A stretch of 64,000 nt of DNA from Candidatus Melainabacteria bacterium 17Bon1m (GCA_032128875.1 JAVLKG010000004.1:320001-384000), one strand, 5' to 3'. Positions 3,321-35,642 are shown, counted from the stretch's first letter. Notes: generated by a model from the letters alone, not told the origin. Numbers and translations are program-made.

Positions 3321-3522
3321 GTGGTTGACCGGGGTGTCCTGAAGTGAAGCTCCAAAATAGATCATAAGCTGGCATATCTCCGTTAAAGCCAGACTGCGTC
3401 CGAAAAAGAACTTCATTTGACAGCTGGTGCTTATGGTCGTTTGGCGAATATATCGACTTTATTGAATGTGGAATTGTGCAAGAATATGCGTTAAGTGTTG
3501 AGTTTCAAGTAGGAGGCAGCGC

Positions 3523-5133
3523 ATGTCCCGAGTATTCAGCCGCAGAAAGATTTTGGGCGTAGCAGCACTGGGTGCGGCGGGCATGGTTTTTGGGCGGAAA
3601 TTGCTTTCACAGGCAGGCGAAGGCATCGGCAAGTGGAACGCCGGTGGAATAGGCTCAAACGAACTGCAGGCCAGCACCGAGATAGTAAACGCCGGCAACC
3701 TGAAGCAATCTTTCGAGCAGCTCGGACAGTACATCTACTTGACACCTCAAAAGCTGGGCGGGGGCACGCATGCGGTCGATTTGAATTCCGGACGCACGTT
3801 GGCGTGGATTAGTTACTGGAACTACGGTGACTCTTGTCCGATTTCGCACCACCTTGCCGCATATCCTTCGCCGGATCCGTACAAAGGCTTCGAATTCTTG
3901 AATTCAACTCAGGGCGGCGACAACGTCATGATTTATGGTTTGCCCACACGCATTAAAGAGCGTGGACTGACCGGAAAGTGGGGAATGGGTAACCACATCT
4001 ACCGCGTGCAGTTTGACGGGCAGTCGATGAACCTTATGGAAGACATTGCCGAAACAACCGGCATTGGTCTGGGAGTTCACACTACTATTTATCCGGATGC
4101 TTCCGGCTTTGCAGGAGCTGATGGACAGAAAGATGTATGCGCATTCTTCAATCGCGCGGTAGGCACAGAAAAGACTCAAGTACAAATGGCATTTCGTGCT
4201 GACTGGATTGGAGCCAATCCCAATGGCGGTATGGAAGAAAACTGGTCAAAAGGCGGGAAGATTCGCCTCACTCGATTGAATGCTGCAAAAGAAACCGGCA
4301 GATATGAGCTGGAAGGCACCAAGGGCAACAAAATTGATTGGGAAATGGTGCCTATGGCAGAGTATCTGGTTTACACAGGACAGTTGCCTGGTGACAATCC
4401 GAAAGGATTGAGCGGGTTGGATGCAGTAGTGCACCATCCAAGCGGACGCTATTCTGCGTTGATTATTCGTATGCTCTCATGTGCGATCATCATAGACCGG
4501 CATAATTGGGAGCCTGTCTGCTGTTTGCACTGCCCTGAAGGTTCGCCCGGCAATCTGGCAGTAACAAAAGTGAGCTCCGGACCAGACACCTGGGAAATTA
4601 AGTTGGACGACGTAAAATGTGTCGGACACGAAGCGGGATTTTCGCCGGACGGCAAATCTTTCTTGATGATGAATAACATCAAGCAAAATAATATGGCCGT
4701 GTTCGACACTGCTGATGCTGATCCGCGCAATTGGAAGAAAATCACTTACGTTAAAGATCCGACTTGGAGCGGTGACTATCCGAGTCCTTTTCACCTGTGC
4801 TTTTCTGTTGACGGCAGCAAAATGTTTGTTTCCGTACTTTATCCAAAACCAGCTAACAGCGGATGTTGCGTAGTTGATACCAAGACTTGGAAGATCATCA
4901 AGAAATTCCAAAATATTGGACCCGACTGTCAAACCATGGCTGTCACATACGACGGCAAATATGTTTTCCAGATCTTCAGCGGATTTCAACGAATGTCTAG
5001 CGGAGCATTTATTTTCACGCAAGACACTTTGGAGCCGGTTGGCTATTTGCCAAACTTCGGTGGTCACCACGACTGCGTGATAGTACCTACCAAAGTCGAG
5101 CAGCTCAAGAACAGCCGCTGCACCACTCTCTAA
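3523..5133 (+). CDS. tcdh: Tat-exported thiocyanate dehydrogenase (TcDH)-like copper beta-propeller enzyme with one Cu ligand substituted (His to Gln)
   Basis: AGGAGG RBS and twin-arginine SRRKIL. Motifs CPISHHLAAYPSPDPYK, GLGVH, DGQKD, GTKGNKIDWE, GHEAGFSPDG, PFH, GHHD and a C-terminal SRCTT match my recollection of Thioalkalivibrio TcDH. Confidence 0.85.
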   Translation: MSRVFSRRKILGVAALGAAGMVFGRKLLSQAGEGIGKWNAGGIGSNELQASTEIVNAGNLKQSFEQLGQYIYLTPQKLGGGTHAVDLNSGRTLAWISYWNYGDSCPISHHLAAYPSPDPYKGFEFLNSTQGGDNVMIYGLPTRIKERGLTGKWGMGNHIYRVQFDGQSMNLMEDIAETTGIGLGVHTTIYPDASGFAGADGQKDVCAFFNRAVGTEKTQVQMAFRADWIGANPNGGMEENWSKGGKIRLTRLNAAKETGRYELEGTKGNKIDWEMVPMAEYLVYTGQLPGDNPKGLSGLDAVVHHPSGRYSALIIRMLSCAIIIDRHNWEPVCCLHCPEGSPGNLAVTKVSSGPDTWEIKLDDVKCVGHEAGFSPDGKSFLMMNNIKQNNMAVFDTADADPRNWKKITYVKDPTWSGDYPSPFHLCFSVDGSKMFVSVLYPKPANSGCCVVDTKTWKIIKKFQNIGPDCQTMAVTYDGKYVFQIFSGFQRMSSGAFIFTQDTLEPVGYLPNFGGHHDCVIVPTKVEQLKNSRCTTL

Positions 5134-5157
5134 CGCTGAATATCGAGGCAAGAGACG

Positions 5158-6450
5158 GTGTCGCTCGAACAAGGTGAGAAAACATCAGGTCGCCGGGCTG
5201 GTGCGACTTTGTTTTTGTTTTCTCGTCTTGCATTGCAAAATGTCTTGCGGCGTCCTGCACGCACTTTGATGTTGGTGTTAGCAGTGACCCTATCTACGGG
5301 CGGCGTCTTCGCATCGTATACGGTGGCTAGCGGCATCAAAGACAGTATGGACAGAAGCTTTTCTCGAATGGGAGCAGATCTGATTGTGGTGCCTTCGCGG
5401 GCGATGGTTAACATTACGAGCGCACTACTCACTGTTCAACCGACGGATGAGTTGATCGACAATAGCCTGATCGACGAAATTCGAAAGCTCGATGGAATCG
5501 CTCAAGTTGCGCCGCAGACATATTTGCAAGTACCGATTATGTCGGGAATGCCGGAGTGTAAAGCCAACCTCATAGCCTTTGATTCAAAGAACGATTTCAC
5601 TGTATTACCGTGGATGGTGACACATGCACCGCGACCCATGGTGCCTGGAGATATTCTTGCTGGGAGTCGTAGAGCTGAAACAGTCGGCGACGAAATTGCA
5701 CCCTGTAATCAGCCGGTAAATATCTATGGAAAGTTGGGAAGAAGTGGCGTCGGTCCATTGGACGATTCATTTTTTACCACTTATGAAACTGTAGAACTTC
5801 TGCAATCTAGATTGAGGCAAAATGCCGGCAGCTCGGGAAATTCAAAAGAATCAGGAACAGATTCACTGTCCAACTTCAATCGCTCGCGAATTTCAGCGAT
5901 TTTAGTAAAACTAAAATTTGGAGCTACTCCAGAACAAGCACGTTTTTCAATAGCCAAACTCCCTGGTGTAAAAGTGGTCACCGGCGCGACTATTGTTACT
6001 TCGACGCGGCAAGCAACCACAGCACTACTTGGTGGCATGCTGGGTTTTACTGGCATGATGCTTATTGCGATGCTGATTATGGTAAGCCTGTTGTTCTCCG
6101 GCATAATTTTCGAGCGGCGCCGTGAGGTCGGGTTGTTACGCGCCATCGGCTCCAGGCATGTTGATGTAATGCGCATGCTTCTTGCAGAAGCCGTTTTCAC
6201 CACCGCACTAGGCGGTTTTACCGGCATCATATTTGGTGCCGGACTGTTGTTGGTTTTCCAACGCTCTTTGGTCTATTACCTCGAGACATTACATATCGAT
6301 TTCGCCTGGCCTGAACCACTGGCTATTTTCAGTGTCGCCATTATGTGTTCTATTGCCTCTGCGCTTGTTGGATTACTTGGCGCTCTGGTGCCGGCATGGA
6401 AAGCAAGTCTTGAAGAGCCTTATCTCCTCATTCAAGGTGAGGGCGGATAA
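5158..6450 (+). CDS. ABC transporter permease, FtsX/MacB/LolC family
   Basis: N-terminal TM, large extracytoplasmic domain (MGADLIVVP), ERRREVGLLRAIGS motif and further C-terminal TM helices. GTG start 24 nt after the TcDH-like gene. Confidence 0.92.
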   Translation: MSLEQGEKTSGRRAGATLFLFSRLALQNVLRRPARTLMLVLAVTLSTGGVFASYTVASGIKDSMDRSFSRMGADLIVVPSRAMVNITSALLTVQPTDELIDNSLIDEIRKLDGIAQVAPQTYLQVPIMSGMPECKANLIAFDSKNDFTVLPWMVTHAPRPMVPGDILAGSRRAETVGDEIAPCNQPVNIYGKLGRSGVGPLDDSFFTTYETVELLQSRLRQNAGSSGNSKESGTDSLSNFNRSRISAILVKLKFGATPEQARFSIAKLPGVKVVTGATIVTSTRQATTALLGGMLGFTGMMLIAMLIMVSLLFSGIIFERRREVGLLRAIGSRHVDVMRMLLAEAVFTTALGGFTGIIFGAGLLLVFQRSLVYYLETLHIDFAWPEPLAIFSVAIMCSIASALVGLLGALVPAWKASLEEPYLLIQGEGG

Positions 6451-7835
6451 TGCTGACTCTGCACTCAATTGGAAAAAGCTATGGCGGTGAGCAAACTGTT
6501 GAAGCCGTCAAGAATGTCAGTCTAGATTTGCAGGAAGGTAAATCTCTGGCGATTGTTGGTCGCTCCGGCTCTGGAAAGTCTACATTGCTGGGGATGATCG
6601 GCGGAATTAGCAGACCGACGAGTGGGCAGGTTTTGATCGACGGTGTTGATCAGTGGAAATTGAACGACAGCGGCAGGGCTGATTTGCGAAATCAAAAACT
6701 GGGATTTGTTTTTCAATTTGCAAGTCTGCTTCCGTCCTTGAGAGCTGTAGATAATGTCGCGCTTCCATGTTTGATTTCTGGTTCTATTCCGGCGCGTGAG
6801 GCCTACGCGAGAGCACATGCTCTTTTGAATCGAGTTGGTTTGTCTCATCGCTATGATTCGTTCCCTGGACAATTGTCAGGCGGCGAGCAGCGCAGAGTGG
6901 CAATCGCCCGTGCACTAGTAAACTCGCCTCGATTGCTGCTTGCTGATGAGCCGACCGCTGATTTGGATGAAGCAACAGAATCGGAAATATTGAATCTGTT
7001 GATTGATATTCATCGCGCCTTGAATGTGACACTAGTGATGGTGACGCACAATCCCGATATTGCGGCCCGGGCGGATCACATCATTGAGATGCGAGCGGGC
7101 GAGACAGTTTCTCGAAAAGATACTTCCCAAACCGACATTAAGACTGCAGAGATTGAAACAATCACCAGCTTGTATGAAGTTTCTCCTGAAAAGGCTGCTG
7201 CGGAAAAAGTGAGACTAGGCGAAGGACTTGAAGTTTTCGTCGGCCGCTTGGTCATGTGGATTGTGCCTATTTGTGTGATTGCGTGGTGCTTGAATTGGGC
7301 TGTCGCTGATTACGAGCGCAGTGAAATACAAGCTAAAGCACAACGCCGAATGGCGCTTGAAGAATTAGCAATGCAAGGATTGCGCGCGGACGTGAAGAGC
7401 GTCGAATTCGGTAAAGGGAAAACTTATGTAGTCACGCTCTACCTTCGCAACACGAAAGGAGACGAACCTTTATATGTGATGTCGCCGATGGTAAGAGGTT
7501 TTGTGCAAGTCGGGACAAGCTGGCTCGAAGTACCAATGAAGTCACTCGAATCTGGAAGCGCTCAAGTTTTGAAAGTAACAGGAACCCAGCTTCTGAAGTA
7601 CGAAATGGAGCCGGATGTTCCGGATTTTACACAACTGCTTCCTTATTACATGCATGTTCGCCTTACCAACGACATGCTGATTAGTCCGCGTAGCCAACCA
7701 AAGGACGATCTAGTTGAGCGCAATGACAGTTATTACGTCTATTTGAAACCGCATGATGCCGATGACAACGCTATCCTCGGCAAAATGAAGTTTCCCGGGA
7801 GGCCACCAGTGTGGATTCCGATGCCTCCGCACTGA
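6450..7835 (+). CDS. ABC ATP-binding protein (LolD/MacB type) fused to a TM helix and an uncharacterised C-terminal domain
   Basis: GRSGSGKST, LSGGEQRRVAIARA, LLADEPT and VTH motifs in the first ~225 aa, then hydrophobic LVMWIVPICVIAWCLNW and ~170 extra aa. TAATG stop/start overlap with the permease. Confidence 0.92.
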   Translation: MLTLHSIGKSYGGEQTVEAVKNVSLDLQEGKSLAIVGRSGSGKSTLLGMIGGISRPTSGQVLIDGVDQWKLNDSGRADLRNQKLGFVFQFASLLPSLRAVDNVALPCLISGSIPAREAYARAHALLNRVGLSHRYDSFPGQLSGGEQRRVAIARALVNSPRLLLADEPTADLDEATESEILNLLIDIHRALNVTLVMVTHNPDIAARADHIIEMRAGETVSRKDTSQTDIKTAEIETITSLYEVSPEKAAAEKVRLGEGLEVFVGRLVMWIVPICVIAWCLNWAVADYERSEIQAKAQRRMALEELAMQGLRADVKSVEFGKGKTYVVTLYLRNTKGDEPLYVMSPMVRGFVQVGTSWLEVPMKSLESGSAQVLKVTGTQLLKYEMEPDVPDFTQLLPYYMHVRLTNDMLISPRSQPKDDLVERNDSYYVYLKPHDADDNAILGKMKFPGRPPVWIPMPPH

Positions 7836-7875: not shown

Positions 7876-7905
7876 GGGCAAGTCAATCGACTTGCCCATC
7901 CTTTT
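7876..7905. terminator. Probable bidirectional intrinsic terminator
   Basis: GGGCAAGTC-aatc-GACTTGCCC hairpin between convergent genes, with an A-tract before and a T-tract after. Confidence 0.7.
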
Positions 7906-11394: not shown

Positions 11395-14247
11395 ATGAGT
11401 ACGGACCCTCAAAGTGATCCCCACTACGTTCTCCAAGAACTGGAGAATGCAAAGCAGGTTTATGGTGGTGGCAATTATGCCGCTGCCGAACCATTACTGC
11501 GGGAAGTTTTTGAGAAGCTGCAAGCTCATCCCGAGGGCATGGCCTTTTGTGCCGAGTCTCTGTCGGAGATTTATACAGCTTGGGGAAAATTTTCCGAAGC
11601 GATTAAACTCAATCAGCGCTTCATCAATTTAACAGCACCGCAGCCCAACCATAATGTCACAGCAATTGGCTTGGCGCTTGAACGCATTGCCGCTGTCAGT
11701 CTGAAAGTCGGAAAGCAAGAACAATCTGAAAAGTTGAACAGACTTGCTGCTTCAGTGAAGGCAGGAAAAGTAGACGTAACCACGTTGGTCACTGATAAAG
11801 GCAAGATCCCAAACGCACCACCGACGACAGAACACACGTATACATTCCGTGCTTTGAGTCCAGACTCTCCTCCTCCCCCTCAACCTTCTGCTCCAGTTGC
11901 TGCTTCTTCTGATGTGCTATCAAAGCCAATTAAAGAAACGGCAATGTTTTCCAAACCGAATTTACCGGCGCAATCAGATATAGCAGCAGCCACACCGCCT
12001 GCGGTGGCACCTGCTGCTCCACAGCCTGCAGTGCCGACCGCTCCTACAGTTTCTTCAGTTCTCCCGTCTGCGCAACCGACGTCCGGGCTACCGCCAGCAC
12101 CTCAGGCACCAGCACCAACGCCAACGCCAACGCCAACGCCAACGGTGCCCACTCCAGCTGCACCATTTTCTTCGCCACAAATGCCTGCTGCACAGCCTGG
12201 ACCAGCTTCGCCACAACCGGCGGGGACTCCGCTGGCAGCATATACACCGCCAACTGCGCCTCCGGCGCCCTCAGCTGGTACAACACCTTCAGCTGATGTT
12301 CTGTCAAAACCCATAAAAGAGACAGCGATGTTCTCCCGCCCGTCTTTACCAGCACAAACAGCGATTCCTGCTGTTGCTGCTGGTCAAATGGGTGACGTTG
12401 CTGATTTCGCTGACTTCGATGAAGAGATCCCGGTAGATTCGACTTCTACTTCTGGCTCTCATCCTGCAGTTTCGCAAACATCTGCAGTTTTCCAAGCACC
12501 AGAAGTGCCACCATTATCTTCGCCATCACCAGTTACGCCACCGCAAACGGTACCAGCTCCAATTGCGGCACCACCGTCAGTTCAAGAGCCCTCAGTAGAA
12601 TCTGCCGGGGATGATTGGAGTCAAATGGAGTCTGACGATTGGGGGCAACCGCAAGAGCCGGAAGCCGACGGATGGGGAGCTGCCGAACCAGCTGATCATC
12701 AGGAGTTCGGGCAGCAAGAACAATTCAATTCTCCATCTCAACCTCAGGTTCAATCGCAGCCTGTTGCATTCTCTCCTCAACCTCCAGCTCTCAGCGGCCC
12801 CCACAGTCCACAATTTCAAGCTCCGCAGCCGTCCAGCTCTGAACCGTCATTTCCTGCTCCGGAGCCTCATTTTTCGCCCGAGTCAGCAGCGGCTCCAGCT
12901 TCATTTGAAGCACCCGCTGCGGATCTCAGTACTGCATCCGGCTCGGGTAATTTTGATGCTCAATTCGATCCTGCCGAGCTCAACGCAATTGACTCGCAAA
13001 GGGCATCTTCGGCAACAAATGCCGCGTCGAGTGCTCGTTCTATAAGGTCAATGTCTTCTCGCAACATGGCGGCCCCGCCTGTTGCAAGCGGCCCGGACAT
13101 GGGCGGTCTAATGGGCATGATTGCTAGTATGTTTGTAGGAAAGCGAGATCCCGATCAACCTGTTCAGCAGTTGGTTGATCCGAGCACCACCTCTGCAAAC
13201 GCTGCCGGTGCACTACTAGTAGTGGCGGCGATCTTCATTGGTGGTTTTTACTGTCTCTATAATTTCATTCCGAGAAAATTGACGCCTGAGCAAGCTTATC
13301 TAGCAATTCAGCACAAATATGTCTCCGTTGATTCATCAAAGACTTTCAATTTGTTGGATGAGTCAACCTGCGAATTCACTGTTGGTGAAAACAAGCTCAA
13401 GGCAAGGTTGAAGTTTTACCTCGACGACTGGCGCGATGCGCTTGATCTCTCGCTGGGTAAAGCTGGGCAGAAACAGTTTCTTATGATCAAGTCGGATGAC
13501 GGCTTGGTGGATGAGAACGAAGCCAGATTGTACTTGCATGGCGGTCCTGAAATTCAAATCGCTAATAAGCTAGATATCGTTGGTCAGTATGCCGGATTGG
13601 TTTTTACAAGAACCAAGAAGTATCCGACTAGCGGTGATCTAATGGGCGGTGCTGCTGATCTTCACTATTTGAATCCATATAGCAAAAAGAGAGAAGTTCC
13701 GTCTTTCCACTCTATTGTGGTTGGAAAAGGCTTAACAGTCTCTCTTGATGCTGATCACGCTCGTACAAAGTTTTACGATGATCTTCTTGCCGGACAGATT
13801 CCAAAAGACACTCCGAAGGCACACCCTGGCGAGATTCGCTGCTATGCAGTTGATTTCTTGAGCCCTCGCGGAAACATTCAAGCGTTTATCGTTCAGATAA
13901 TAGGTAAAGACGGCAAACCCGTAGGCAGTGCGAAAGCAAGAACGGCATATCTGTACGCGCTTGAAGATGGCAAGGAGTATAAGCCGATTGGGCCAGCGCA
14001 ATTGCCTTACAACGGGGAACAAGGTCTGCGACCGATTGTTGTCTGGCTTTTAATGGATAAACTCGACTCCAACTTTGTCCTTCTTTTGACAATGGCTCCA
14101 GTAGTGGTGTTCACAATATTATCGTTCGTGTTTTTGGTCCTGTCCTTTTTGATCCCGAGAGGATTGGGACGTGCAGTTGCCGTCATGCTGTTGGCTGCAT
14201 GCGCGATCCCCGCATTGACGTTCTGTTTTGCGAAATTCTTGCCTTAG
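11395..14247 (+). CDS. Large membrane protein: N-terminal TPR-like helices, long Pro/Ala/Ser-rich linker, TM, extracytoplasmic domain, C-terminal TMs
   Basis: 950-aa ORF with TPR-like YAAAEPLL...LSEIY...AIKL, low-complexity region at about aa 135-560 and hydrophobic segments near aa 605 and 895-945. Confidence 0.85.
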   Translation: MSTDPQSDPHYVLQELENAKQVYGGGNYAAAEPLLREVFEKLQAHPEGMAFCAESLSEIYTAWGKFSEAIKLNQRFINLTAPQPNHNVTAIGLALERIAAVSLKVGKQEQSEKLNRLAASVKAGKVDVTTLVTDKGKIPNAPPTTEHTYTFRALSPDSPPPPQPSAPVAASSDVLSKPIKETAMFSKPNLPAQSDIAAATPPAVAPAAPQPAVPTAPTVSSVLPSAQPTSGLPPAPQAPAPTPTPTPTPTVPTPAAPFSSPQMPAAQPGPASPQPAGTPLAAYTPPTAPPAPSAGTTPSADVLSKPIKETAMFSRPSLPAQTAIPAVAAGQMGDVADFADFDEEIPVDSTSTSGSHPAVSQTSAVFQAPEVPPLSSPSPVTPPQTVPAPIAAPPSVQEPSVESAGDDWSQMESDDWGQPQEPEADGWGAAEPADHQEFGQQEQFNSPSQPQVQSQPVAFSPQPPALSGPHSPQFQAPQPSSSEPSFPAPEPHFSPESAAAPASFEAPAADLSTASGSGNFDAQFDPAELNAIDSQRASSATNAASSARSIRSMSSRNMAAPPVASGPDMGGLMGMIASMFVGKRDPDQPVQQLVDPSTTSANAAGALLVVAAIFIGGFYCLYNFIPRKLTPEQAYLAIQHKYVSVDSSKTFNLLDESTCEFTVGENKLKARLKFYLDDWRDALDLSLGKAGQKQFLMIKSDDGLVDENEARLYLHGGPEIQIANKLDIVGQYAGLVFTRTKKYPTSGDLMGGAADLHYLNPYSKKREVPSFHSIVVGKGLTVSLDADHARTKFYDDLLAGQIPKDTPKAHPGEIRCYAVDFLSPRGNIQAFIVQIIGKDGKPVGSAKARTAYLYALEDGKEYKPIGPAQLPYNGEQGLRPIVVWLLMDKLDSNFVLLLTMAPVVVFTILSFVFLVLSFLIPRGLGRAVAVMLLAACAIPALTFCFAKFLP
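12115..12144 (+). repeat. Hexanucleotide tandem repeat (CCAACG)x5 encoding (PT)5
   Basis: Five perfect CCAACG units, in frame. Confidence 0.9.
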
Positions 14248-14741: not shown

Positions 14742-14947
14742 AGCGGTACCTTTCGTTATCTTCTCGACTGCCCTTCCGACCAGTCTGGTGGGTCGTCGAA
14801 ATTATAAGCTATCTTCTGTGATTCATGCCAAGAGGTGTGCCAAAGTGGCTTCTAACGTATGAAAAGTCAAGCTCTGATAGCATTAGTAGGTTACTGTGTG
14901 CGGCTGTCAGCCGTCTAGAATTCGAAGCTCGGTGGTCAGGTTATTCG

Positions 14948-17626
14948 ATGGCTCTGCCTCATCAAGTGCCTTTATTCAAAGCCCTGGATGCTGTAGACAA
15001 CCAGGATTTTGATACCGCTGAGAAAGAAATCAACCATTTTTTCACCGCTCTGGAGAACGACCCGATCGCCATTGACTGTCGTAGGCAGCATTTTGAACGT
15101 CAGGTTTTCGAAGCGGATTTCTTGAGCATTTTGACTAAAGAGGAAATTGACGCCTGGGGCATTCTGGCGTCGATCAAACTATCACGCTCTGATCTCGATG
15201 GAGCGCGTGCTGACTGCTATCGAATGATTGAGCTTATCGACCAATATTATGGTTTTGACACGCCGTCATGGGATTCGCCCGAAGCTCGAATTCCAATTAA
15301 TCCGGAATTGATGAGTCGATACTTTCAAATTGCCAGCTATCTCACAGAGATCTACGAAGCTCAGGATGATCTGGAAATGAGCAAGCGCTGGGCTAATGTT
15401 CGCAAGACCGCGGTCTCCGACATTCAACATCCTGATGAAGTCTGGGGGCGTTGGATTTCCGATGAAAATCCTCCCGGAGCCGTCGGAATTACTATCTATG
15501 AATTTTCGGATTGGCAGATTGAAAAACGCACCGTAGACGGAAAAGACTGGTTGATTAACATCTATCGCTCGTTGAGTGAGCGCGTTTCACCACTGGAGAT
15601 GAACTGGTTGGTGGCGATTCATATACCAACAGATAATCTGGCCGATGTGCCATCAAAAGCGATGCGCTGGAAAATTTGGAGTCTTCGTCTGGCAATTGCA
15701 TCGCGCATGCATAAGGCAGGGGTAGGCGCGTATTTTGGTGAACTGCAGACGCGTGGAGAGCGCGTCTTACTTTACTATGCCAGTGGCGATGAAGATGCGC
15801 GTGCTGCGATCGGACGTATTCTCGAAGAAGCTTCTGAATTGAATCCTATTCTTGAAATTCGACACGATGAAGGTTGGAGAGAATACTCGAAATGGGGAAA
15901 TAGCGCCGTTATAGTAACTTCACCAACAGCGGTGGCTATGCCAGAGCCGCGTGAAGATGAACATGAGAATGACAAGCTTCTGAGGGGTATTTGGTCGGCT
16001 TGCGAGTCTATTCATGATGCGATGAGTCGACTGTATGCGCTTGTAAACGACTGCGCGAAAGTACCGCCGCAAGGACAGGATTTCAAACGCTTTTGTATTG
16101 AATACCTCTTCGGCTTGAAGGACAAACTGTCCAATAAAGATCGAACAATGGCGCTTGTGCATTTGATGTGGAATTTGCCCAAGATTGATCCTGATGCATC
16201 GATTCGCGCATTTGACGAGCTTTGGGTAGAGCCGTATCCGACAGAAGACGACACAACACTGAATTTGGCTGCTTGTGCATTTGCTGATGTTGCTCCGCTA
16301 AAAGCTCTGGAAATTGCGCAGTTTTTGAAAACCAGGAATTATTCGATAGTGCACACAGCACTGGCGAAAGTCGCTCAAAAATTGGCTGAGACTGATCCCA
16401 AGAAAGCAATGGAAATTGCGCAAGACGCTCGTATTGGAATAATCGAGGGTGCGGATTCAGAATTTGGTAAAGCCAGTTTTCTCATGGAATTAGCAGGCGA
16501 TGTCGCCGAGTTGTCTCCTGAATTTGCACGTGAGCTATTGATAGAAGCAGAAGCATACATGCATGATATTGACGCCTTTGAGGTGAAGGATCAGGCTTAC
16601 ATAAGTTTGTTACACCTTACTCAAAAACATGCTTGCGATAAATTGCCCGAATTCTCCAAGCGCGCCGTAGAAAATTGCATCAAATTGGAAGTGGATGATC
16701 CAAATGATTTCTGGGGTTTTGGCGGACCAAGAAGAGCAATTCTCTCGCAGACTTTGCTGGTGCCGTTTGTAGCTACATACGATCAAGATGAAGCACTGAA
16801 TTTGTTGAACCGTGCCTTCAATCTTTTGAACGATATTGATGAAGATGCGTTTGGTCGAATACTGCATCTTTCCAACATCGCTGAAGCTGCAGCCGTCCTT
16901 GATCATACGGCTAACAAGTCGCTGGCTGAGGACGTCTGGTCAGAGCTGACAAAAAGCATGGAAAGTGTAAGCGCGCAAGATTCTTACTTCTTGAGCCAGC
17001 GATTAGAAGCAGGCGCAAATAGTCCAATTATTCCTTTTGTACTTATGAATCCATCGGTGGCTGATGAGCGTTTTACCTCTGTCATCAAAGTGTGCAATTC
17101 CGTAACCTTGCCTGAACGAGTGGTTACGCTGATGTGCACATTTGCTGCGGTTTTTAACCAACATTTTCCCCGAAGGACGAAAGAGCTAATAGCGCTTGCT
17201 TCAGAGAGAGCGCCTGAATGTTCTTCTGAGCAATTGTGTGTCAAATCGTGCATGCAAGTGGTGGCAACAATGGATAGAGTAAACCTGCTATCCGACAATG
17301 AATTCGATCATGTGCTCGGTATGATTCGCAACAACAATGATGAATCCGTCAAGTTTCATTTATTGCTGGAGTGCTCAGCATTGCTCTCGTCGACGTCTCC
17401 TGCGAAGTGCGCGACCTTACTTGATGATGCCACCAAAATTTTTGAGTCTAATGAAATAGAACTCGGCGATGCGATCGAGTTGATAAAACAATTACCAGCT
17501 CGACAGTGCAGCAAGTTATTGTTCATGATCTTGGACAAGCATAAGAACGAATCACAGCGCAGAGCTGCCTTGAGTTGGCTATCCAATCAATTTGGTAAAG
17601 AAGGCGCAGAAGATATTCGACCTTAA
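14948..17626 (+). CDS. Large helical-repeat protein with an internal DUF695-like domain
   Basis: Long ORF (the track starts at 14825; start placed at MALPHQ). Segment YFGELQTRGERVLLYY...HDEGWREY resembles DUF695; the rest looks like an alpha-solenoid. Confidence 0.75.
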   Translation: MALPHQVPLFKALDAVDNQDFDTAEKEINHFFTALENDPIAIDCRRQHFERQVFEADFLSILTKEEIDAWGILASIKLSRSDLDGARADCYRMIELIDQYYGFDTPSWDSPEARIPINPELMSRYFQIASYLTEIYEAQDDLEMSKRWANVRKTAVSDIQHPDEVWGRWISDENPPGAVGITIYEFSDWQIEKRTVDGKDWLINIYRSLSERVSPLEMNWLVAIHIPTDNLADVPSKAMRWKIWSLRLAIASRMHKAGVGAYFGELQTRGERVLLYYASGDEDARAAIGRILEEASELNPILEIRHDEGWREYSKWGNSAVIVTSPTAVAMPEPREDEHENDKLLRGIWSACESIHDAMSRLYALVNDCAKVPPQGQDFKRFCIEYLFGLKDKLSNKDRTMALVHLMWNLPKIDPDASIRAFDELWVEPYPTEDDTTLNLAACAFADVAPLKALEIAQFLKTRNYSIVHTALAKVAQKLAETDPKKAMEIAQDARIGIIEGADSEFGKASFLMELAGDVAELSPEFARELLIEAEAYMHDIDAFEVKDQAYISLLHLTQKHACDKLPEFSKRAVENCIKLEVDDPNDFWGFGGPRRAILSQTLLVPFVATYDQDEALNLLNRAFNLLNDIDEDAFGRILHLSNIAEAAAVLDHTANKSLAEDVWSELTKSMESVSAQDSYFLSQRLEAGANSPIIPFVLMNPSVADERFTSVIKVCNSVTLPERVVTLMCTFAAVFNQHFPRRTKELIALASERAPECSSEQLCVKSCMQVVATMDRVNLLSDNEFDHVLGMIRNNNDESVKFHLLLECSALLSSTSPAKCATLLDDATKIFESNEIELGDAIELIKQLPARQCSKLLFMILDKHKNESQRRAALSWLSNQFGKEGAEDIRP

Positions 17627-17630
17627 CGCC

Positions 17631-19007
17631 CTAATGCGGCCGGGATGGTGGCGCTGAGAGAATCAAGTCATTACCTTTCCAGTGCGTTTTCATTACCGGA
17701 CTTTGCAATTCACCACGATCTTTTAAAACTTCCGAAACTACCGAGTTCTTCATCTGCGCGAAGGCATCTCCTAAAGTGATGTTGCCACCCTTGCTGCGCA
17801 GGGCTTGAATGAGATTGTGTGTAAAAACACCATTCTCATACCGCTTCGATTCCCATGATACCTGACTTGGCTCGCTTGAGCAGATCACCAATTGACCGGT
17901 ACCGAGCAGCAAAGAATTGCTGTCGAAGTTGCCAATTCTCGTGAGTCCTTTAGCAGGATTGGCGGCACCACTATGGCAGGCGTCGACGATGAGTACAACT
18001 CGATTAGAATGAACTCGTTGTTTGACTGCAGCGGCAAGATCTTGCAGAGGTAGACCTGTCGCATAGAGACTGCCTGGATCCGTATCGTGCATCACCAAAT
18101 AATTCAGACCTTCAAGATCGCTGCTTGATGGACTACCGTGTGTCGATATAAAGATCAAAACCAGGTCATTCGGTTGCGCATTATGAGGCAACCATTTATC
18201 ACCGATTTGCGCCATGACGTTCGATTTTGTAGCTTGATCGTCAACGAGAAGCTTTACGTGATCGGGCGCAAAATTCGCTTCTTTGACTAGAAAGTCTCGT
18301 AAATCTGCAGCATCCTTTGCCGGATACTTCAAATTGATTTCCGGTTTTTGAAATTTGCTGATTCCAATAACAAGTGCCCATTTATCATCAATGGGCTTAT
18401 TCAGAGCGTCGTCTGACGACACAGGTTTATCCGGAATGGATATTGTTGTCGTGGTCGATGTTCTTTCAATTACCCTTGGTGTGCTCTTCTCTTCAGGTTG
18501 CGCCGCCACTTTAATCGTCGTAGTTTCTTGCCGACTTGGTGGTTTTCTTTCCGCGGTATTTTCAGCCAACATCGAATTGTTCTGACCGAAGCCGGTGCCA
18601 TCGAGGAGCACCTTGTATTTCAATCGCACGCCAACGTCCACGCCAAACATGAGCTGCATGGTAAGTGTTTGTCTTGAATTCAAGTGCACGGCAGCCGCTT
18701 TCATCGAGTCGTCGCTACCAGCCGACCATGAAAGATTGGTGAGCTCTTTTCCGGCACTGTCGCGCAAAACAACACGCATTACCGTTGAATAAAAGTCTGT
18801 TGCTCCGCCCACTTTTACAGTGACATCGCCAGGACCCGCAACAAATGAATAGTAGTGACTTTGTCCTTTAGGCTCTTCGCTACCGCTGACTTCTTTACTG
18901 GACAATGCAACCGGATTTGATGCATCTCCGATCGCAAGCACAGCGGTGCCTGTGCCTAAGGACAAGCAGAGCGAAACGAGAATGCCTAGAAGGTTGAGTC
19001 TTTTCAT
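17631..19007 (-). CDS. Secreted caspase-family (peptidase C14) protein
   Basis: Signal peptide, N-terminal beta-rich domain, KWALVIGIS, catalytic dyad STHGS / DACHSG, NGVFTHNL. Confidence 0.92.
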   Translation of the reverse strand: MKRLNLLGILVSLCLSLGTGTAVLAIGDASNPVALSSKEVSGSEEPKGQSHYYSFVAGPGDVTVKVGGATDFYSTVMRVVLRDSAGKELTNLSWSAGSDDSMKAAAVHLNSRQTLTMQLMFGVDVGVRLKYKVLLDGTGFGQNNSMLAENTAERKPPSRQETTTIKVAAQPEEKSTPRVIERTSTTTTISIPDKPVSSDDALNKPIDDKWALVIGISKFQKPEINLKYPAKDAADLRDFLVKEANFAPDHVKLLVDDQATKSNVMAQIGDKWLPHNAQPNDLVLIFISTHGSPSSSDLEGLNYLVMHDTDPGSLYATGLPLQDLAAAVKQRVHSNRVVLIVDACHSGAANPAKGLTRIGNFDSNSLLLGTGQLVICSSEPSQVSWESKRYENGVFTHNLIQALRSKGGNITLGDAFAQMKNSVVSEVLKDRGELQSPVMKTHWKGNDLILSAPPSRPH

Positions 19008-31093: not shown

Positions 31094-32653
31094 TTGCAAA
31101 GCGATGTGCACATTCCTGTTGTAATTGTCGATGACCAAACGGTCATGCGCATCGGCTTGAAAATTGTGCTTGAGAGAATCCCTGGAGTTAAGGTGGTCGC
31201 AGAGGCTCAGGACGGAAAAGAGGCGATCGATGTCTCGCTGCGGTTGCGTCCCGCGATCATTTTGATGGATATTTCGATGCCAAACATGGACGGCATTCAG
31301 GCAACCGAGATCATCAAAGAAAAGTTGCCCGAGACACGCGTTGTAATGTTCACTTCAAATGAGGATGAAGCTGCGTTTTTGCAAGCTCTCGCTGCAGGTG
31401 CGGATGCTTATTGTTTGAAGGATGCAAGTGAAAGGCAATTGCAATCTGCTATGTCTGCTGTTTTGCAAGGTGCTAAATGGTTGGATCATGGATTGGCAAA
31501 GCGGGTTTTATCGGAAAGTTCTTCTGCTTCACAACGCCTTAAGCGCAATCTGATTACTCCGCAACAGATGAAGATATTCGAGCTGATAGAGCATGGCCTC
31601 AATATTGAAGAAATAGCCAGAAAGTTGGGTTGCGATGTCACAAGCGTGAAGATGGATTTGCGCACAGCAGTTGATTGTCTCGAACCCGATTCAATGAATA
31701 AATCTACAAGGTTGATGGCAAATCTGCGCCCCATGCTTGAGTCGAGTGACGCAGTAAAAGACTATTCAACCGGCGAAACTCGAGAGAAGCAGGTTGATGA
31801 CATAGTCTCTGAAAAATACCGCATTGAGAAAGTTTTGGGTCGTGGTGGCATGAGCGTGGTCTATCTTGCGCGCCACATTTCTCTCGGCAAGTTAGTTGCA
31901 ATAAAAATGATGCATTTAAATATGGTGGCAACCGGTTCTTTCTTGCAGAGGTTTGAGCGTGAGGCAAAAATCGCCAGTTCGCTCAATCATACTAACATTG
32001 TTGGTGTGCATGACTTTGGTGAAGATGCGCACGGACAGCCGTATTTGATTATGGATTATGTTAATGGTGAAACTCTAGAAGAGCTGATTGCTGATCGTCA
32101 GAAGTTGGATCCTGGCTTTTGCGTTCCCATATTTATGCAAATTTGCGATGCACTGACAACGATGCACAACAAAGGTTTTGTGCATCGTGATCTAAAACCA
32201 AGCAACGTGATTGTGAAAGTCAAAAGCAGCGGCACTCACATCACTCTGGTAGATTTAGGCATCGCAAAGTCAATTGTTGAGAGTAGTGCTACGGCTAGAC
32301 TAACTGCACATGGGCAGATGTTTGGTTCTCCCACATATATGAGTCCTGAGCAATGCATTGGACAAGATGCAGATTTTCGCAGCGACTTGTATGCCTTAGG
32401 CTGCTTGATGTATGACGCTCTTAGCGGCGGTCCGCCCTTTGATCATGACAGCACTTACAACGTTATGTGGCAGCACGTCAATGAGCCACCATCGCGTCTG
32501 CCCTTCCTTGAAGAGCACTCCAAAGTGCCAGAACACATGCAAACGATTATGTTCAAGCTTTTGCAAAAGGCGCCGAATCAACGCTATCAGAGTGCGGATG
32601 AAGTGAAAGCTGAACTTGCTCTGCTTTTGCAAGAAGCGAGATCAGGACAGTAG
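31094..32653 (+). CDS. NarL-type response regulator (REC + LuxR-like HTH) fused to a Hanks-type Ser/Thr kinase
   Basis: IVDD, LMDISMP, FTS, YCLK receiver residues; IEEIARKL HTH; LGRGGMSVVY, VAIK, HRDLKPSN, DLG, GSPTYMSPEQ. Confidence 0.93.
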   Translation: MQSDVHIPVVIVDDQTVMRIGLKIVLERIPGVKVVAEAQDGKEAIDVSLRLRPAIILMDISMPNMDGIQATEIIKEKLPETRVVMFTSNEDEAAFLQALAAGADAYCLKDASERQLQSAMSAVLQGAKWLDHGLAKRVLSESSSASQRLKRNLITPQQMKIFELIEHGLNIEEIARKLGCDVTSVKMDLRTAVDCLEPDSMNKSTRLMANLRPMLESSDAVKDYSTGETREKQVDDIVSEKYRIEKVLGRGGMSVVYLARHISLGKLVAIKMMHLNMVATGSFLQRFEREAKIASSLNHTNIVGVHDFGEDAHGQPYLIMDYVNGETLEELIADRQKLDPGFCVPIFMQICDALTTMHNKGFVHRDLKPSNVIVKVKSSGTHITLVDLGIAKSIVESSATARLTAHGQMFGSPTYMSPEQCIGQDADFRSDLYALGCLMYDALSGGPPFDHDSTYNVMWQHVNEPPSRLPFLEEHSKVPEHMQTIMFKLLQKAPNQRYQSADEVKAELALLLQEARSGQ

Positions 32654-33933: not shown

Positions 33934-34878
33934 ATGACTGATGCAAAATCCAATCGTAAGCCCAATCCGCATCTAATTATTCCTGCCGGAACGCAGGTAG
34001 TTACGTTGGTCGAGATTCGGAGCAAGGCAGGACAACCGTTAAGAAGAAAAGGTACGGTCGGAACTATCCTTAAGTCGCCGGTCGATAACGAACATGCTTA
34101 CTTAATTCGGTTTCCCGATGGAGGGCAAGCAAGTCTCCACCGACAAGAGCTCGTAATAAGAAAGCATCTTCAGAATGTAGATTTTGATAGACCAGATCCT
34201 TTGGGAGATCGTGAGTTATTTGATTTTGTTATTTATCAGTGTGTAGTCGGATCGCGCGCCTACGGCCTTGACGTTGAAGAGTCAGACATCGATCGCCGCG
34301 GAATTTACTTGCCTTCTGCCGAACTTCATTGGTCACTTTATGGTATTCCTGAGCAAATCGAAGACACCGCAAATGAGGAATGTTATTGGGAATTGCAAAA
34401 ATTCCTCATTTTGACTTTAAAAGCAAATCCAAATCTCCTTGAGTGCCTTTACTCTCCGATTGTGGAAAAATGTTCTCCAATCGCCCAAGAACTTCTAGAT
34501 TCGCGAGACTGCTTTTTGTCCAAGCTTGTTTATCAAACCTATAACGGCTATGTTCTTTCTCAGTTTCGGAAGTTAGAACAGGATCTCAGAACGCGTGGTG
34601 AACTGAAATGGAAGCACGTTATGCACCTTGTTCGCTTACTGGTTTCCGGCATCACAATTCTTAGGGAAGGTGTTGTGCCTGTGAATGTAGGGGATTATCG
34701 AGAAAAACTCATGCCAATTCGGCTGGGTCAAGTGTCGTGGGAGGAAGTGAACGATTGGCGATTGCAACTTCATAAGCAGTTCGACGCAGCATTTGAATCA
34801 TCAAAGTTGCCTGACAGACCAGATTACGAACAGGCTAATAGACTGCTGATCAAGGCTCGAAGGGAGATGGTTAAGTAA
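33934..34878 (+). CDS. Pol-beta superfamily nucleotidyltransferase (PF10127/YcgL/RlaP-like) with ~95-aa N-terminal extension
   Basis: VVGSRAYGL...SDIDRRG (GS-x-DxD), KANPNLLECL, KHVMHLVRLL, SKLPDRPD. Confidence 0.9.
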   Translation: MTDAKSNRKPNPHLIIPAGTQVVTLVEIRSKAGQPLRRKGTVGTILKSPVDNEHAYLIRFPDGGQASLHRQELVIRKHLQNVDFDRPDPLGDRELFDFVIYQCVVGSRAYGLDVEESDIDRRGIYLPSAELHWSLYGIPEQIEDTANEECYWELQKFLILTLKANPNLLECLYSPIVEKCSPIAQELLDSRDCFLSKLVYQTYNGYVLSQFRKLEQDLRTRGELKWKHVMHLVRLLVSGITILREGVVPVNVGDYREKLMPIRLGQVSWEEVNDWRLQLHKQFDAAFESSKLPDRPDYEQANRLLIKARREMVK

Positions 34879-35642
34879 TGGAATTTCCAAAACAAGTTGT
34901 TGAGGCAACGCAGAGCCATCCATTTCCACTGTTATTCGCTACCATTAGTGGTGCCCACTTATACGGATTTCCTTCGCCAGATTCTGATTTTGATCTTCGT
35001 GGCTGTCACGTACTGCCCGTTTCTGAGCTGATTGGGCTTGAGGCTCCAAGCGAAACCTTGGAGTCATCACGTATGGAAGAAGGTCTGGAGCTGGATCTTG
35101 TAACGCACGACGCAAAGAAATTCTTTCTGATGATGTTGCAGAAGAACGGATATGTCCTTGAACAACTCTATTCTCCTCTGGTTGTGCATGGAACAGTGGA
35201 ACATGAGGAGCTGAAAGAAATCGGTAAGAAGTGCATCACAAGGAATCATAGTTATCACTACCTTGGATTTGCGCTGACCCAATGGAGACTATTGTTCAAA
35301 CAAGAAAAACCTCGTGTTAAACCTCTCTTGTACACGTATAGAGTTCTTCTTACCGGAATAAACTTGATGCAGACTGGGGTTATCGAAGCGAATCTTGTAA
35401 CTCTGAATGAGAAATTCAGATTGCCTTATATTGCCGAGTTGATCGAGCAGAAGCTTTCGGGTGTGGAAAAACAGCAAATAAAAGGTGCAGATATCAGCTT
35501 TCACGAGACTGAATACAATCGCCTGCGAGCCCAGCTTGAAGATGAGTTTGACAAGTCTAAATTGCCAGAATTGCCGGACGCAAGGAAGGAATTAGACGAC
35601 CTTCTGCGACGGGTAAGAATGAACAAACTTACACCGATATAG
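34878..35642 (+). CDS. Second pol-beta nucleotidyltransferase (PF10127/YcgL/RlaP-like)
   Basis: ISGAHLYGFPSPDSDFDLRG, NGYVLEQL, VKPLLYTYRVLLTG; TAATG overlap with the upstream paralogue. Confidence 0.92.
   Translation: MEFPKQVVEATQSHPFPLLFATISGAHLYGFPSPDSDFDLRGCHVLPVSELIGLEAPSETLESSRMEEGLELDLVTHDAKKFFLMMLQKNGYVLEQLYSPLVVHGTVEHEELKEIGKKCITRNHSYHYLGFALTQWRLLFKQEKPRVKPLLYTYRVLLTGINLMQTGVIEANLVTLNEKFRLPYIAELIEQKLSGVEKQQIKGADISFHETEYNRLRAQLEDEFDKSKLPELPDARKELDDLLRRVRMNKLTPI

What the first reader, a model, noticed from the sequence alone, without database searches (positions are those of the whole stretch)
3523..7835. Compact TcDH-like copper enzyme plus MacB/LolCDE-type ABC operon with no sulfur-oxidation context
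Seen: three co-oriented, tightly spaced genes (24-nt gap, TAATG overlap, terminator at 7876) encode a Tat-exported propeller protein, an FtsX-type permease and an ATPase fusion. Established: thiocyanate dehydrogenase is a rare trinuclear-copper periplasmic enzyme of sulfur-oxidising bacteria such as Thioalkalivibrio, where it clusters with ABC, copper-handling and sulfide dehydrogenase genes. In this window there is no flavocytochrome c, cytochrome c, CopC or cyanase gene; the flanks are recQ and an RRM gene. Inference: a minimal, self-contained module in an apparently heterotrophic lineage, with a different substrate or electron acceptor, and the ABC system acting in copper loading or maturation.
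Basis: partly seen in the sequence, partly recalled or inferred. Interest (0 to 1): 0.82.

Follow-up and report, generated by a model that had tools for sequence, protein, structure and literature searches.

The report
Gln-variant thiocyanate dehydrogenase with dedicated ABC partner
A non-photosynthetic cyanobacterial relative carries a compact operon for a periplasmic copper enzyme of the thiocyanate dehydrogenase family, in a large untested branch where one active-site histidine is always glutamine, together with an ABC machine whose membrane-anchored domain is predicted to dock onto the enzyme.

Summary
Genes at 3523-5133, 5158-6450 and 6450-7835 form a tight operon, with a 24-nt gap, a TAATG overlap and a hairpin at 7876-7897. 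They encode a Tat-signal TcDH homologue, a MacB/FtsX permease and a LolD-like ATPase.

The ATPase is fused through a TM helix to a periplasmic beta-sandwich. The organism is an Obscuribacterales (Melainabacteria) MAG. Its genome search found no cyanase, SoxY, FCSD, CopC or RuBisCO.

New points:
- **Gln variant.** The enzyme keeps 12 of 13 published active-site residues, but His482 (T. paradoxus numbering) is Gln. All 77 related loci covering that column, and 240 of 325 family members, share this. They form one main clade beside the His clade that holds the characterised enzymes.
- **Conserved unit.** The full gene unit is present in 64 of 79 loci from several phyla.
- **Partner domain.** The beta-sandwich has no known family, occurs once per genome at the TcDH locus, and always ends in Met-Pro-Pro-His. 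A complex prediction docks it on the enzyme (0.65, best control 0.00).

The ABC link was already described for Thioalkalivibrio. I read this as a new variant of a known kind. Substrate and ABC role remain inferred.

The parts
3512..3517 (+). Shine-Dalgarno-like AGGAGG, 6 nt upstream of the first start codon
   Evidence: Read directly from the sequence.
3523..5133 (+). TcDH-family copper beta-propeller enzyme (536 aa), Gln-type. It has a Tat-like S-R-R-K-I-L motif at residues 6-11. Residues 1-48 are disordered in the model.
   Evidence: TM 0.93-0.95, rmsd 1.7-1.9 A, 50-51% identity to pmTcDH. AF2 model pLDDT is 84.
4930..4932 (+). Codon of Gln470, which takes the place of active-site His482 of T. 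paradoxus TcDH (His447 of P. methylotrophicum TcDH)
   Evidence: Alignment to 5f75_A with full-length numbering.
5158..6450 (+). MacB/FtsX-type (type VII) ABC permease, 430 aa. One N-terminal and three C-terminal hydrophobic helices flank a periplasmic MacB_PCD domain.
   Evidence: Pfam FtsX 3e-15 and MacB_PCD 1e-8. The helices are my reading of the translation. The alignment of 63 homologues shows no conserved Cys, His or Met cluster in the periplasmic part.
6450..7154 (+). ABC ATPase domain (residues 1 to about 235) with intact Walker A, signature LSGGEQ, Walker B and switch His
   Evidence: Pfam ABC_tran 5e-36. The best NCBIfam match is LolD at 233.5 bits, below its 307.75 cut-off. The motifs are read.
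7233..7307 (+). Transmembrane helix (residues about 262-286), continued by a helical stalk, linking the ATPase to the periplasmic domain
   Evidence: AF2 model: one helix over residues 9-59 of the 211-aa construct, which is 259-309 of the protein. The hydrophobic stretch is read.
7380..7745 (+). Periplasmic Ig-like beta-sandwich (residues about 311-432) of no known family. His402, Arg404, Tyr400, Arg424 and Tyr429 are invariant (H152, R154, Y150, R174, Y179 in alignment A1).
   Evidence: pLDDT 87. Only generic beta-sandwich matches, Z<=8.4. No Pfam match and no solved relative by sequence.
7785..7832 (+). Conserved C-terminal tail ending in Met-Pro-Pro-His-COOH. It is the main predicted contact with the enzyme.
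   Evidence: The ending is MPPH in 63 of 64 loci (the other runs off its contig) and in 120 of 120 listed homologues. Interface residues 196-211 of the construct are given.
7876..7897 (.). Hairpin followed by a T-run on both strands: a terminator-like site shared with the convergent RRM gene

Best explanation
This is an operon of an Obscuribacterales bacterium for a periplasmic copper enzyme and its dedicated membrane machine.

**Shown**
- Gene 1 is a Tat-signal, seven-bladed propeller of the thiocyanate dehydrogenase family.
- It belongs to a large and almost wholly monophyletic branch in which His482 of the trinuclear copper site region is always Gln. Every other listed catalytic residue is kept.
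- Genes 2 and 3 are a MacB/FtsX-type ABC permease and its ATPase.
- The ATPase carries, behind a TM helix, a periplasmic beta-sandwich that is found only at TcDH loci and ends in invariant Met-Pro-Pro-His.

**Inferred**
- The enzyme is exported as an apo-protein.
- The beta-sandwich docks with its tail on the funnel face of the propeller.
- The ABC pair works by mechanotransmission, as recalled for FtsEX, LolCDE and MacB: ATP hydrolysis in the cytoplasm drives a periplasmic movement.
- That movement loads or activates the copper centre. In effect this would parallel what NosDFY-NosL does for nitrous oxide reductase (recalled).
- The enzyme then oxidises thiocyanate, or a close analogue, to cyanate plus zero-valent sulfur and passes two electrons to a c-type cytochrome.
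- In this heterotroph that would serve detoxification or scavenging rather than lithoautotrophic growth.
For: **Family.**
- By sequence the match is full length: E 3e-156 to pmTcDH and 1.5e-138 to tpTcDH.
- By fold, TM is 0.93-0.95 normalised to the target, with rmsd 1.7-1.9 A.

**Active site.** Tsallagov 2019 lists 13 active-site residues (passage read). Twelve are kept; only His482 is Gln470.

**Clade.**
- All 77 of the 79 loci that cover the column have Gln.
- Of 325 family members, 240 have Q and 83 have H.
- The tree gives one Q clade of 237 (support 0.805) beside an H clade of 77 (support 1.0). Fitch parsimony on the midpoint root gives H as the root state with 2 changes.
- The H clade holds L096, which scores 837 and 811 bits to the characterised enzymes, against 522 and 466 for this protein.

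**Unit.** 64 of 79 loci hold all parts, and in 5 more the permease is cut by the contig end. The partner domain is fused to the ATPase in 37 of those 64 and is a separate ORF in 27.

**Partner specificity.** The A1 profile finds exactly one copy in each of 5 of 5 genomes that carry the unit, always at the TcDH locus.

**Docking.** The complex prediction scored 0.65 against a best control of 0.00. That mark was reached by 116 of 157 solved complexes and 2 of 215 mismatched pairs. The runs share at least 86% of contacts and the partner pLDDT is at least 84.
- On the partner, contacts include the tail (residues 196-211 of the construct), His152, Arg174 and Tyr179.
- On the enzyme, contacts include residues 272-294, 416, 419 and 463-468. 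These lie within 2-7 residues of Glu274, His424 and Gln470.

**Classical operon.**
- The Thioalkalivibrio TcDH operon has two FtsX-topology permease/ATPase pairs and a single-TM hypothetical protein. All were induced on thiocyanate (passages read).
- An H-type locus (L096) holds TcDH, two such pairs and a homologue of the beta-sandwich at E 2e-18.

**Context.**
- TatC is present in the genome.
- PDB titles distinguish 'non-activated' from activated pmTcDH.
- The next-nearest fold is nitrous oxide reductase.
Against: - No activity, metal content or expression was measured.
- Five genomes with an orphan Gln-type enzyme (3 Methylococcales, 2 Actinomycetota) lack the beta-sandwich domain anywhere (0 of 5). 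The machine is therefore not universally needed.
- The permease's periplasmic domain has no conserved Cys, His or Met cluster, and the partner's fold is a generic beta-sandwich. Nothing marks either as a metal carrier beyond two invariant His and one Met.
- As I recall, recombinant TcDH can be copper-loaded in vitro without helpers.
- The genome has no cyanase, so the cyanate product would have no known sink.
- The Q clade's branch support is moderate (0.805). The sequence sample was seeded by only two queries.
- The complex score used my own alignments, so its calibration holds only roughly.
Confidence: 0.5

Rival explanations
1. This is an ordinary thiocyanate dehydrogenase operon. The Gln is a tolerated variant of the copper site, the substrate is thiocyanate as in Thioalkalivibrio, and the ABC genes serve copper acquisition as the literature suggested. 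Nothing differs apart from the host.
For: - Twelve of 13 active-site residues, and the Tyr164, Thr169 and Lys281 equivalents, are kept.
- One source names relatives 'thiocyanate desulfurase'.
- The same kinds of accessory genes sit in the classical operon.
- Berben 2017 proposed copper acquisition (passage read).
Against: - The Gln is invariant across 237 clade members rather than scattered, which points to a selected difference at the site.
- MacB/FtsX-type systems are, as I recall, not importers.
- Berben 2017 (mSystems) found no metal-binding features in the permeases.
- The host shows no cyanase and no sulfur-oxidation markers.
Confidence: 0.25
2. The Gln clade is neofunctionalised. It uses the same propeller and copper cluster scaffold but acts on another small molecule, such as selenocyanate, an organic thiocyanate, or another sulfur or selenium compound, or it uses another electron acceptor.
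For: - His482 is listed as an active-site residue and is replaced across the clade.
- The hosts are heterotrophs, methanotrophs, planctomycetes and acidobacteria, without a shared thiocyanate pathway.
- Flanking genes differ by lineage: a urea transporter and a CLC channel, SulP, TauD.
Against: The proposed base Glu288, His136, Lys103, Phe436 and the other six metal-site residues are invariant. This argues for the same chemistry. No context gene points to a particular alternative substrate.
Confidence: 0.2
3. The ABC system removes a product or toxic substrate (zero-valent sulfur, cyanate or thiocyanate) from the periplasm. The anchored beta-sandwich would act as an adaptor in place of a MacA-type fusion protein.
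For: - As I recall, MacB-type pumps expel periplasmic substrates.
- One locus (L041) has a TolC-like OEP gene upstream.
- Operons without the ABC genes were reported to carry a putative sulfur acceptor instead (Tsallagov 2019 abstract).
Against: - There is no membrane-fusion protein or outer-membrane factor in the unit, and none among the neighbour ORF families that recur across the 79 loci.
- The partner has no conserved Cys for persulfide carriage.
- Its conserved face and tail are predicted to contact the enzyme itself.
Confidence: 0.1
4. The partner's invariant C-terminal His is supplied in trans to the copper site and replaces the missing His482. The active enzyme would then be a membrane-tethered complex.
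For: - Every partner linked to a Gln-type enzyme ends in MPPH (63 of 64 loci and 120 of 120 listed homologues).
- The single partner seen at a His-type locus does not (P0393).
- The tail and Asp468, two residues from Gln470, are in the predicted interface.
Against: - Five genomes have intact or near-intact Gln-type enzymes with no partner anywhere.
- The covariation rests on only one His-type locus.
- No coordinates were available to measure how near His461 comes to the metal site.
Confidence: 0.06

Closest known systems
Thiocyanate dehydrogenase (EC 1.8.2.7) of Thioalkalivibrio paradoxus (PDB 5F75) and Pelomicrobium methylotrophicum (PDB 8Q9X)
   Same: - Full-length homology, with 43-44% and 50-51% identity.
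- A seven-bladed propeller and a Tat-type signal.
- Twelve of 13 listed active-site residues.
   Different: - His482 (His447 in pmTcDH) is Gln, matching the engineered mutants 6SJI and 8YU5/8YU6.
- It lies in a separate clade.
- The host is a heterotrophic Obscuribacterales bacterium in which no cyanase, Sox, FccAB or CopCD was found.
TcDH gene cluster of Thioalkalivibrio (Berben et al. 2017, PMC5328954 and PMC5744179; passages read)
   Same: - TcDH is followed directly by FtsX-topology ABC permease and ATPase genes, plus a single-TM protein.
- An H-type locus fetched here (L096) shows a homologue of the beta-sandwich partner.
   Different: - There is one permease/ATPase pair instead of two.
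- The partner is fused to the ATPase and ends in MPPH.
- There are no copCD, fccAB, tatA, cytochrome or sigma-54 two-component genes alongside.
Type VII (MacB/FtsX/LolCDE) ABC mechanotransducers
   Same: - FtsX and MacB_PCD domains, and the 1+3 helix layout.
- The best ATPase match is LolD, then MacB and FtsE.
   Different: - It scores below every curated equivalog cut-off.
- There is no MacA- or TolC-type partner in the unit.
- The ATPase carries a TM helix and a periplasmic domain, a fusion I could not match to any known family.
NosDFY-NosL maturation system of nitrous oxide reductase (recalled; no paper read here)
   Same: - The logic is the same: a Tat-exported propeller enzyme with a multi-copper centre, encoded next to an ABC system with a periplasmic part.
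- Nitrous oxide reductase is the next-nearest fold to this enzyme.
   Different: There is no sequence relation. As I recall, NosY is an ABC-2 type permease, NosD a beta-helix and NosL a lipoprotein chaperone. Here the permease is FtsX-type and the periplasmic part is an Ig-like sandwich.

Membership tests
Thiocyanate dehydrogenase (TcDH) family | Full-length sequence similarity to solved TcDH | tested here: met
   E 3e-156 to pmTcDH and 1.5e-138 to tpTcDH, over residues 59-535.
Thiocyanate dehydrogenase (TcDH) family | Seven-bladed beta-propeller fold | tested here: met
   AF2 model with pLDDT 84. Foldseek TM is 0.93-0.95 normalised to the target, with rmsd 1.7-1.9 A to 8z75, 8q9x and 5f75.
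Thiocyanate dehydrogenase (TcDH) family | Twin-arginine signal for periplasmic export | tested here: met
   S-R-R-K-I-L at residues 6-11, followed by a hydrophobic stretch. TatC is present in the genome. No signal-peptide predictor was run.
Thiocyanate dehydrogenase (TcDH) family | The 13 active-site residues listed by Tsallagov 2019: Lys103, His135, His136, Gln156, His206, Glu288, Asp314, His381, His437, His482, His528, Asp529, Arg544 | tested here: not met
   Twelve of 13 are kept. His482 is Gln470. The same holds in all 77 related loci that cover the column.
Thiocyanate dehydrogenase (TcDH) family | Three copper ions and thiocyanate-to-cyanate plus sulfur activity | not testable with these tools
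   This needs purified protein.
Type VII ABC (MacB/FtsX/LolCDE) | FtsX C-terminal domain and MacB periplasmic core domain between TM1 and TM2 | tested here: met
   Pfam FtsX at 56.7 bits (cut-off 25.5) and MacB_PCD at 36.2 bits (cut-off 27).
LolCDE / MacB / FtsEX equivalogs | Score over NCBIfam's curated cut-off for a named equivalog | tested here: not met
   LolD scores 233.5 against a cut-off of 307.75. MacB scores 195.5 against 966, and FtsE 182.8 against 264.85. The permease scores 24.7 to LolCE against 362.
Tripartite MacAB-TolC type pump | Adjacent membrane-fusion (HlyD/MacA) and outer-membrane factor genes | tested here: not met
   Neither is in the operon or its flanks in the window. 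An OEP gene was seen in only one of ten loci annotated.
NosDFY-NosL | ABC-2 permease NosY, beta-helix NosD, lipoprotein NosL | tested here: not met
   The Pfam domains of the three proteins are FtsX, MacB_PCD and ABC_tran only. The periplasmic domain is an Ig-like sandwich. This is a functional analogy, not membership.

The most novel reading that the evidence does not exclude
The Gln clade is a separate copper enzyme whose real substrate is not thiocyanate. Its MacB/FtsX-type ABC partner would be the first example of a type VII mechanotransducer used to assemble or switch on a periplasmic metal centre. In this reading a membrane-anchored Ig-like adaptor places an invariant Met-Pro-Pro-His tail into the catalytic funnel and may even complete the copper site in trans.
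Probability: 0.15. Interest if true: 0.85.

Novelty: new variant of a known kind. Interest (0 to 1): 0.6.

Why it matters
- **An untested majority.** TcDH is the only known enzyme with this trinuclear copper centre, and all biochemistry so far comes from two His-type enzymes of sulfur oxidisers. In the sample drawn here, the larger part of the family is a Gln-type branch: 240 of 325 sequences, from searches seeded by one query of each type. It sits in heterotrophs, methanotrophs, planctomycetes, acidobacteria and true cyanobacteria from water and soil. No member of that branch appears among the solved structures matched here. If these enzymes turn over thiocyanate, the capacity to degrade this pollutant is far wider than the few named sulfur oxidisers. 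If they do not, there is a new copper-dependent reaction to find.
- **A testable assembly system.** The operon offers a small three-gene system for asking how the copper centre is assembled in the periplasm. It also lets one ask what a MacB-type ABC machine does when it has no pump partners.

Tried and rejected
- **H-type scans of metagenomes.** Two scans used degenerate DNA patterns for the His-type motif around His482. One found nothing and the other gave 3 chance matches that encode no TcDH relative.
- **Sample of 400 genomes.** A sample from the class of one gammaproteobacterial locus gave only 3 further TcDH genomes, all His-type and only one with ABC genes. That genome's order held no other genome. 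The contrast between the MPPH tail and the His-type partner therefore rests on one locus.
- **Fold and sequence searches of the partner domain.** Only generic Ig-like sandwiches came back: Foldseek best E 1e-4 with TM <=0.5, and VIA Z <=8.4, which is within that tool's stated background. There was no Pfam match and no solved relative.
- **Neighbour clustering.** Clustering of flanking ORFs over 79 loci found only neighbours shared within one lineage.
- **Expression.** Three runs labelled RNA hold the region, but as 14-kb contigs of even depth across genes on both strands, from the same sample as a DNA run. This is no evidence of transcription.
- **ESM Atlas.** It was closed to these sequences.
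- **Papers not held.** The PNAS 2020 paper on the TcDH mechanism is not in the library. The exact role of His482 (a Cu3 ligand, as I recall) and the properties of the H482Q and H447Q mutants could not be read.
- **Literature search on the host lineages.** A search for papers joining TcDH terms with Melainabacteria, Obscuribacter, Reyranella or Vampirovibrionia listed 15 of 64 hits. None of the 15 held a TcDH term.
- **Earlier findings.** The look-up returned nothing for this place.

Full report
**Observation.**
- They are separated by 24 nt and by a one-base TAATG overlap.
- An AGGAGG precedes the first gene.
- A G+C-rich hairpin with T-runs on both strands at 7876-7897 closes the unit.
- The flanks are recQ and an RRM gene on the other strand.

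**Organism.** The first protein is 100% identical to one in a MAG labelled Candidatus Melainabacteria. It is 94-97% identical to proteins in MAGs labelled Obscuribacterales.
- The held genome is 7.55 Mb and 93% complete.
- It gave no match to cyanase, CopC, SoxY, the flavocytochrome c sulfide dehydrogenase flavin domain or RuBisCO.
- It has TatC and 11 c-type cytochrome matches over the cut-off, all on other contigs.
- The enzyme gene is single-copy.

**The enzyme.** Protein 1 matches solved thiocyanate dehydrogenases over the whole mature chain.
- Its AF2 model superposes on them with TM 0.93-0.95 and rmsd 1.7-1.9 A. Identity is 50-51% to the Pelomicrobium enzyme and 43-44% to the Thioalkalivibrio enzyme.
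- The next fold in the list is nitrous oxide reductase, at E 1e-11.

Tsallagov et al. 2019 list 13 active-site residues (passage read). Chain 5f75_A carries full-length numbering, and against it 12 of the 13 are kept. The equivalents of Tyr164, Thr169 and Lys281 are kept too. His482, however, is Gln470.

The PDB's best sequence match is in fact an engineered mutant. Entries 8yu5 and 8yu6 are pmTcDH H447Q, and 6sji is tpTcDH 'His 482 replaced by Gln' (titles). I recall His482 as a ligand of the third copper, but the paper is not held.

**A clade, not an accident.**
- All 77 of the 79 related loci that cover this column have Gln, and the other sites are invariant.
- I pooled 325 near-full-length family members from two searches, one seeded with this protein and one with a His-type enzyme, together with the loci. 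Of these, 240 have Q, 83 H and 1 E, with 1 gap.
- A FastTree LG+gamma tree with midpoint root gives a Q clade of 237 (support 0.805), an H clade of 77 (support 1.0) and outlying H sequences (5 and 1). Two small Q groups (4 and 1) lie outside the main clade. Parsimony puts H at the root with two changes.
- The H clade holds L096, which scores 837 and 811 bits to the characterised enzymes, against 522 and 466 for this protein.
- The sample is biased by its seeds, and the Q clade's support is moderate.

**Distribution.**
- The search found 576 clusters at E<=1e-20. One source names some of them 'thiocyanate desulfurase'.
- Named loci come from Obscuribacterales, Planktothrix and Drouetiella, Planctomycetota, Methylococcales, Reyranella and other Alphaproteobacteria, Solibacteraceae, Chromatiales and Actinomycetota.
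- In the host's own order, 42 of 107 genomes have the gene. That includes all 12 other genomes of its genus, and 13 of 38 genera.

**The gene unit.**
- In 64 of 79 loci the enzyme gene is followed directly by the permease, the ATPase and the extra domain. In 5 more the contig ends in the permease.
- Ten loci have none of these. One of the ten ends inside the enzyme gene, and two have only 1.2-2.2 kb of DNA downstream. Seven are Methylococcales and two are Actinomycetota.
- The extra domain is fused to the ATPase in 37 of the 64 and is a separate ORF in 27, all of the Reyranella type.
- Beyond the unit nothing is shared between lineages.

**The ABC pair.** The permease has FtsX and MacB_PCD domains and the 1+3 helix layout. 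The ATPase has all its motifs. It is closest to LolD, MacB and FtsE but falls below each curated cut-off. No membrane-fusion or outer-membrane factor gene is in the unit.

**The partner domain.** Residues 251-461 of protein 3 model with pLDDT 87 as a TM helix with a stalk, an Ig-like beta-sandwich and a tail.
- There is no Pfam family and no solved relative by sequence. Fold matches are generic only.
- The alignment shows invariant Tyr, His and Arg in a Y-x-H-x-R motif.
- The chain ends in Met-Pro-Pro-His in 63 of 64 loci and in 120 of 120 listed homologues.
- A profile of the domain finds exactly one copy in each of 5 of 5 genomes that have the unit, always at the enzyme's locus. It finds none in 5 of 5 genomes whose enzyme stands alone.

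**Predicted contact.** I folded the mature enzyme with the periplasmic part of the partner.
- The score was 0.65 against a best control of 0.00. That mark was reached by 116 of 157 solved complexes and 2 of 215 mismatched pairs. The runs agree in at least 86% of contacts and the partner pLDDT is at least 84. My own alignments were used, so the counts hold only roughly.
- On the partner, the interface uses the tail and the conserved His, Arg and Tyr face.
- On the enzyme, it uses loops next in sequence to Glu274, His424 and Gln470. I read these as the funnel face of the propeller, but I had no coordinates to check this.

**Link to the known operon.** In Thioalkalivibrio, TcDH is followed by two permease/ATPase pairs with this helix layout and by a single-TM hypothetical protein. 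All were induced on thiocyanate, and copper acquisition was suggested as the role (passages read). The His-type locus L096 has TcDH and two FtsX/MacB_PCD-ATPase pairs. On the other strand it has a 30%-identical homologue of the partner domain. That homologue keeps the Y-x-H-x-R motif but does not end in MPPH. Two more distant His-type loci have no ABC genes within 10 kb.

**Reading.**
- Membership of the TcDH family is secure, except for the one residue.
- The clade-wide Gln shows a selected change at the metal site.
- The ABC pair is of the kind that, as I recall, does work in the periplasm rather than import solutes. Its anchored domain is specific to this enzyme and is predicted to bind it.
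- I therefore favour an activation or copper-loading machine, analogous in logic to NosDFY-NosL. This role is inferred, not shown.
- The stand-alone enzymes in methanotrophs and actinobacteria show the machine is dispensable in some hosts.
- Substrate, metal content and expression remain open. The RNA-labelled runs only show DNA-like contigs.

Noticed in passing
L014:8157-9605 (Methylotetracoccus oryzae C50C1 contig): The Gln-type TcDH gene of this cultured methanotroph has one in-frame stop codon, about 160 codons into the matched region. The gene of Methylolobus aquaticus (L013) is intact. This could be a pseudogene or a sequencing error.
   Followed up: partly
L001 against window 3523-7835: The closest named MAG has an enzyme that is 100% identical in protein, yet its ATPase differs at several residues (4 in the first 31). 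The enzyme gene may be under tighter constraint, or recently exchanged, relative to its neighbours.
   Followed up: no
Homologues P0235, P0240, P0243, P0247, P0250, P0260, P0270 (741-750 aa) and L035:7443-9686: Some Gln-type homologues are about 200 residues longer at the N-terminus. About 590-aa forms carry a precomputed PF01527 (transposase HTH) label. These may be extended or miscalled starts, or a real fusion.
   Followed up: no
Reyranella-type loci (21 of 79), e.g. L076:14484-15680: A TauD-family dioxygenase gene recurs 2-3 kb from the unit in the alphaproteobacterial loci. In a Solibacteraceae locus (L035) a urea transporter gene lies directly upstream and a CLC channel downstream.
   Followed up: partly
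window 33934-35642: Two adjacent genes both match RlaP (PF10127, RNA-repair-pathway nucleotidyltransferase).
   Followed up: no
window 11395-14247 and 14825-17626: There are two large ORFs (950 and 933 aa). The first has no Pfam match and the second only a weak DUF695 match. They are followed by a caspase-domain protein on the other strand (17631-19007).
   Followed up: no
window 31094-32653: A response-regulator receiver domain is fused to a Ser/Thr protein kinase domain.
   Followed up: no
L096:7831-8364 (His-type locus): An AhpC/TSA thioredoxin-like gene sits between the partner homologue and TcDH on the opposite strand. Tsallagov 2019 describe thioredoxin-superfamily genes upstream of TcDH in Thiohalobacter and Guyparkeria.
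   Followed up: no
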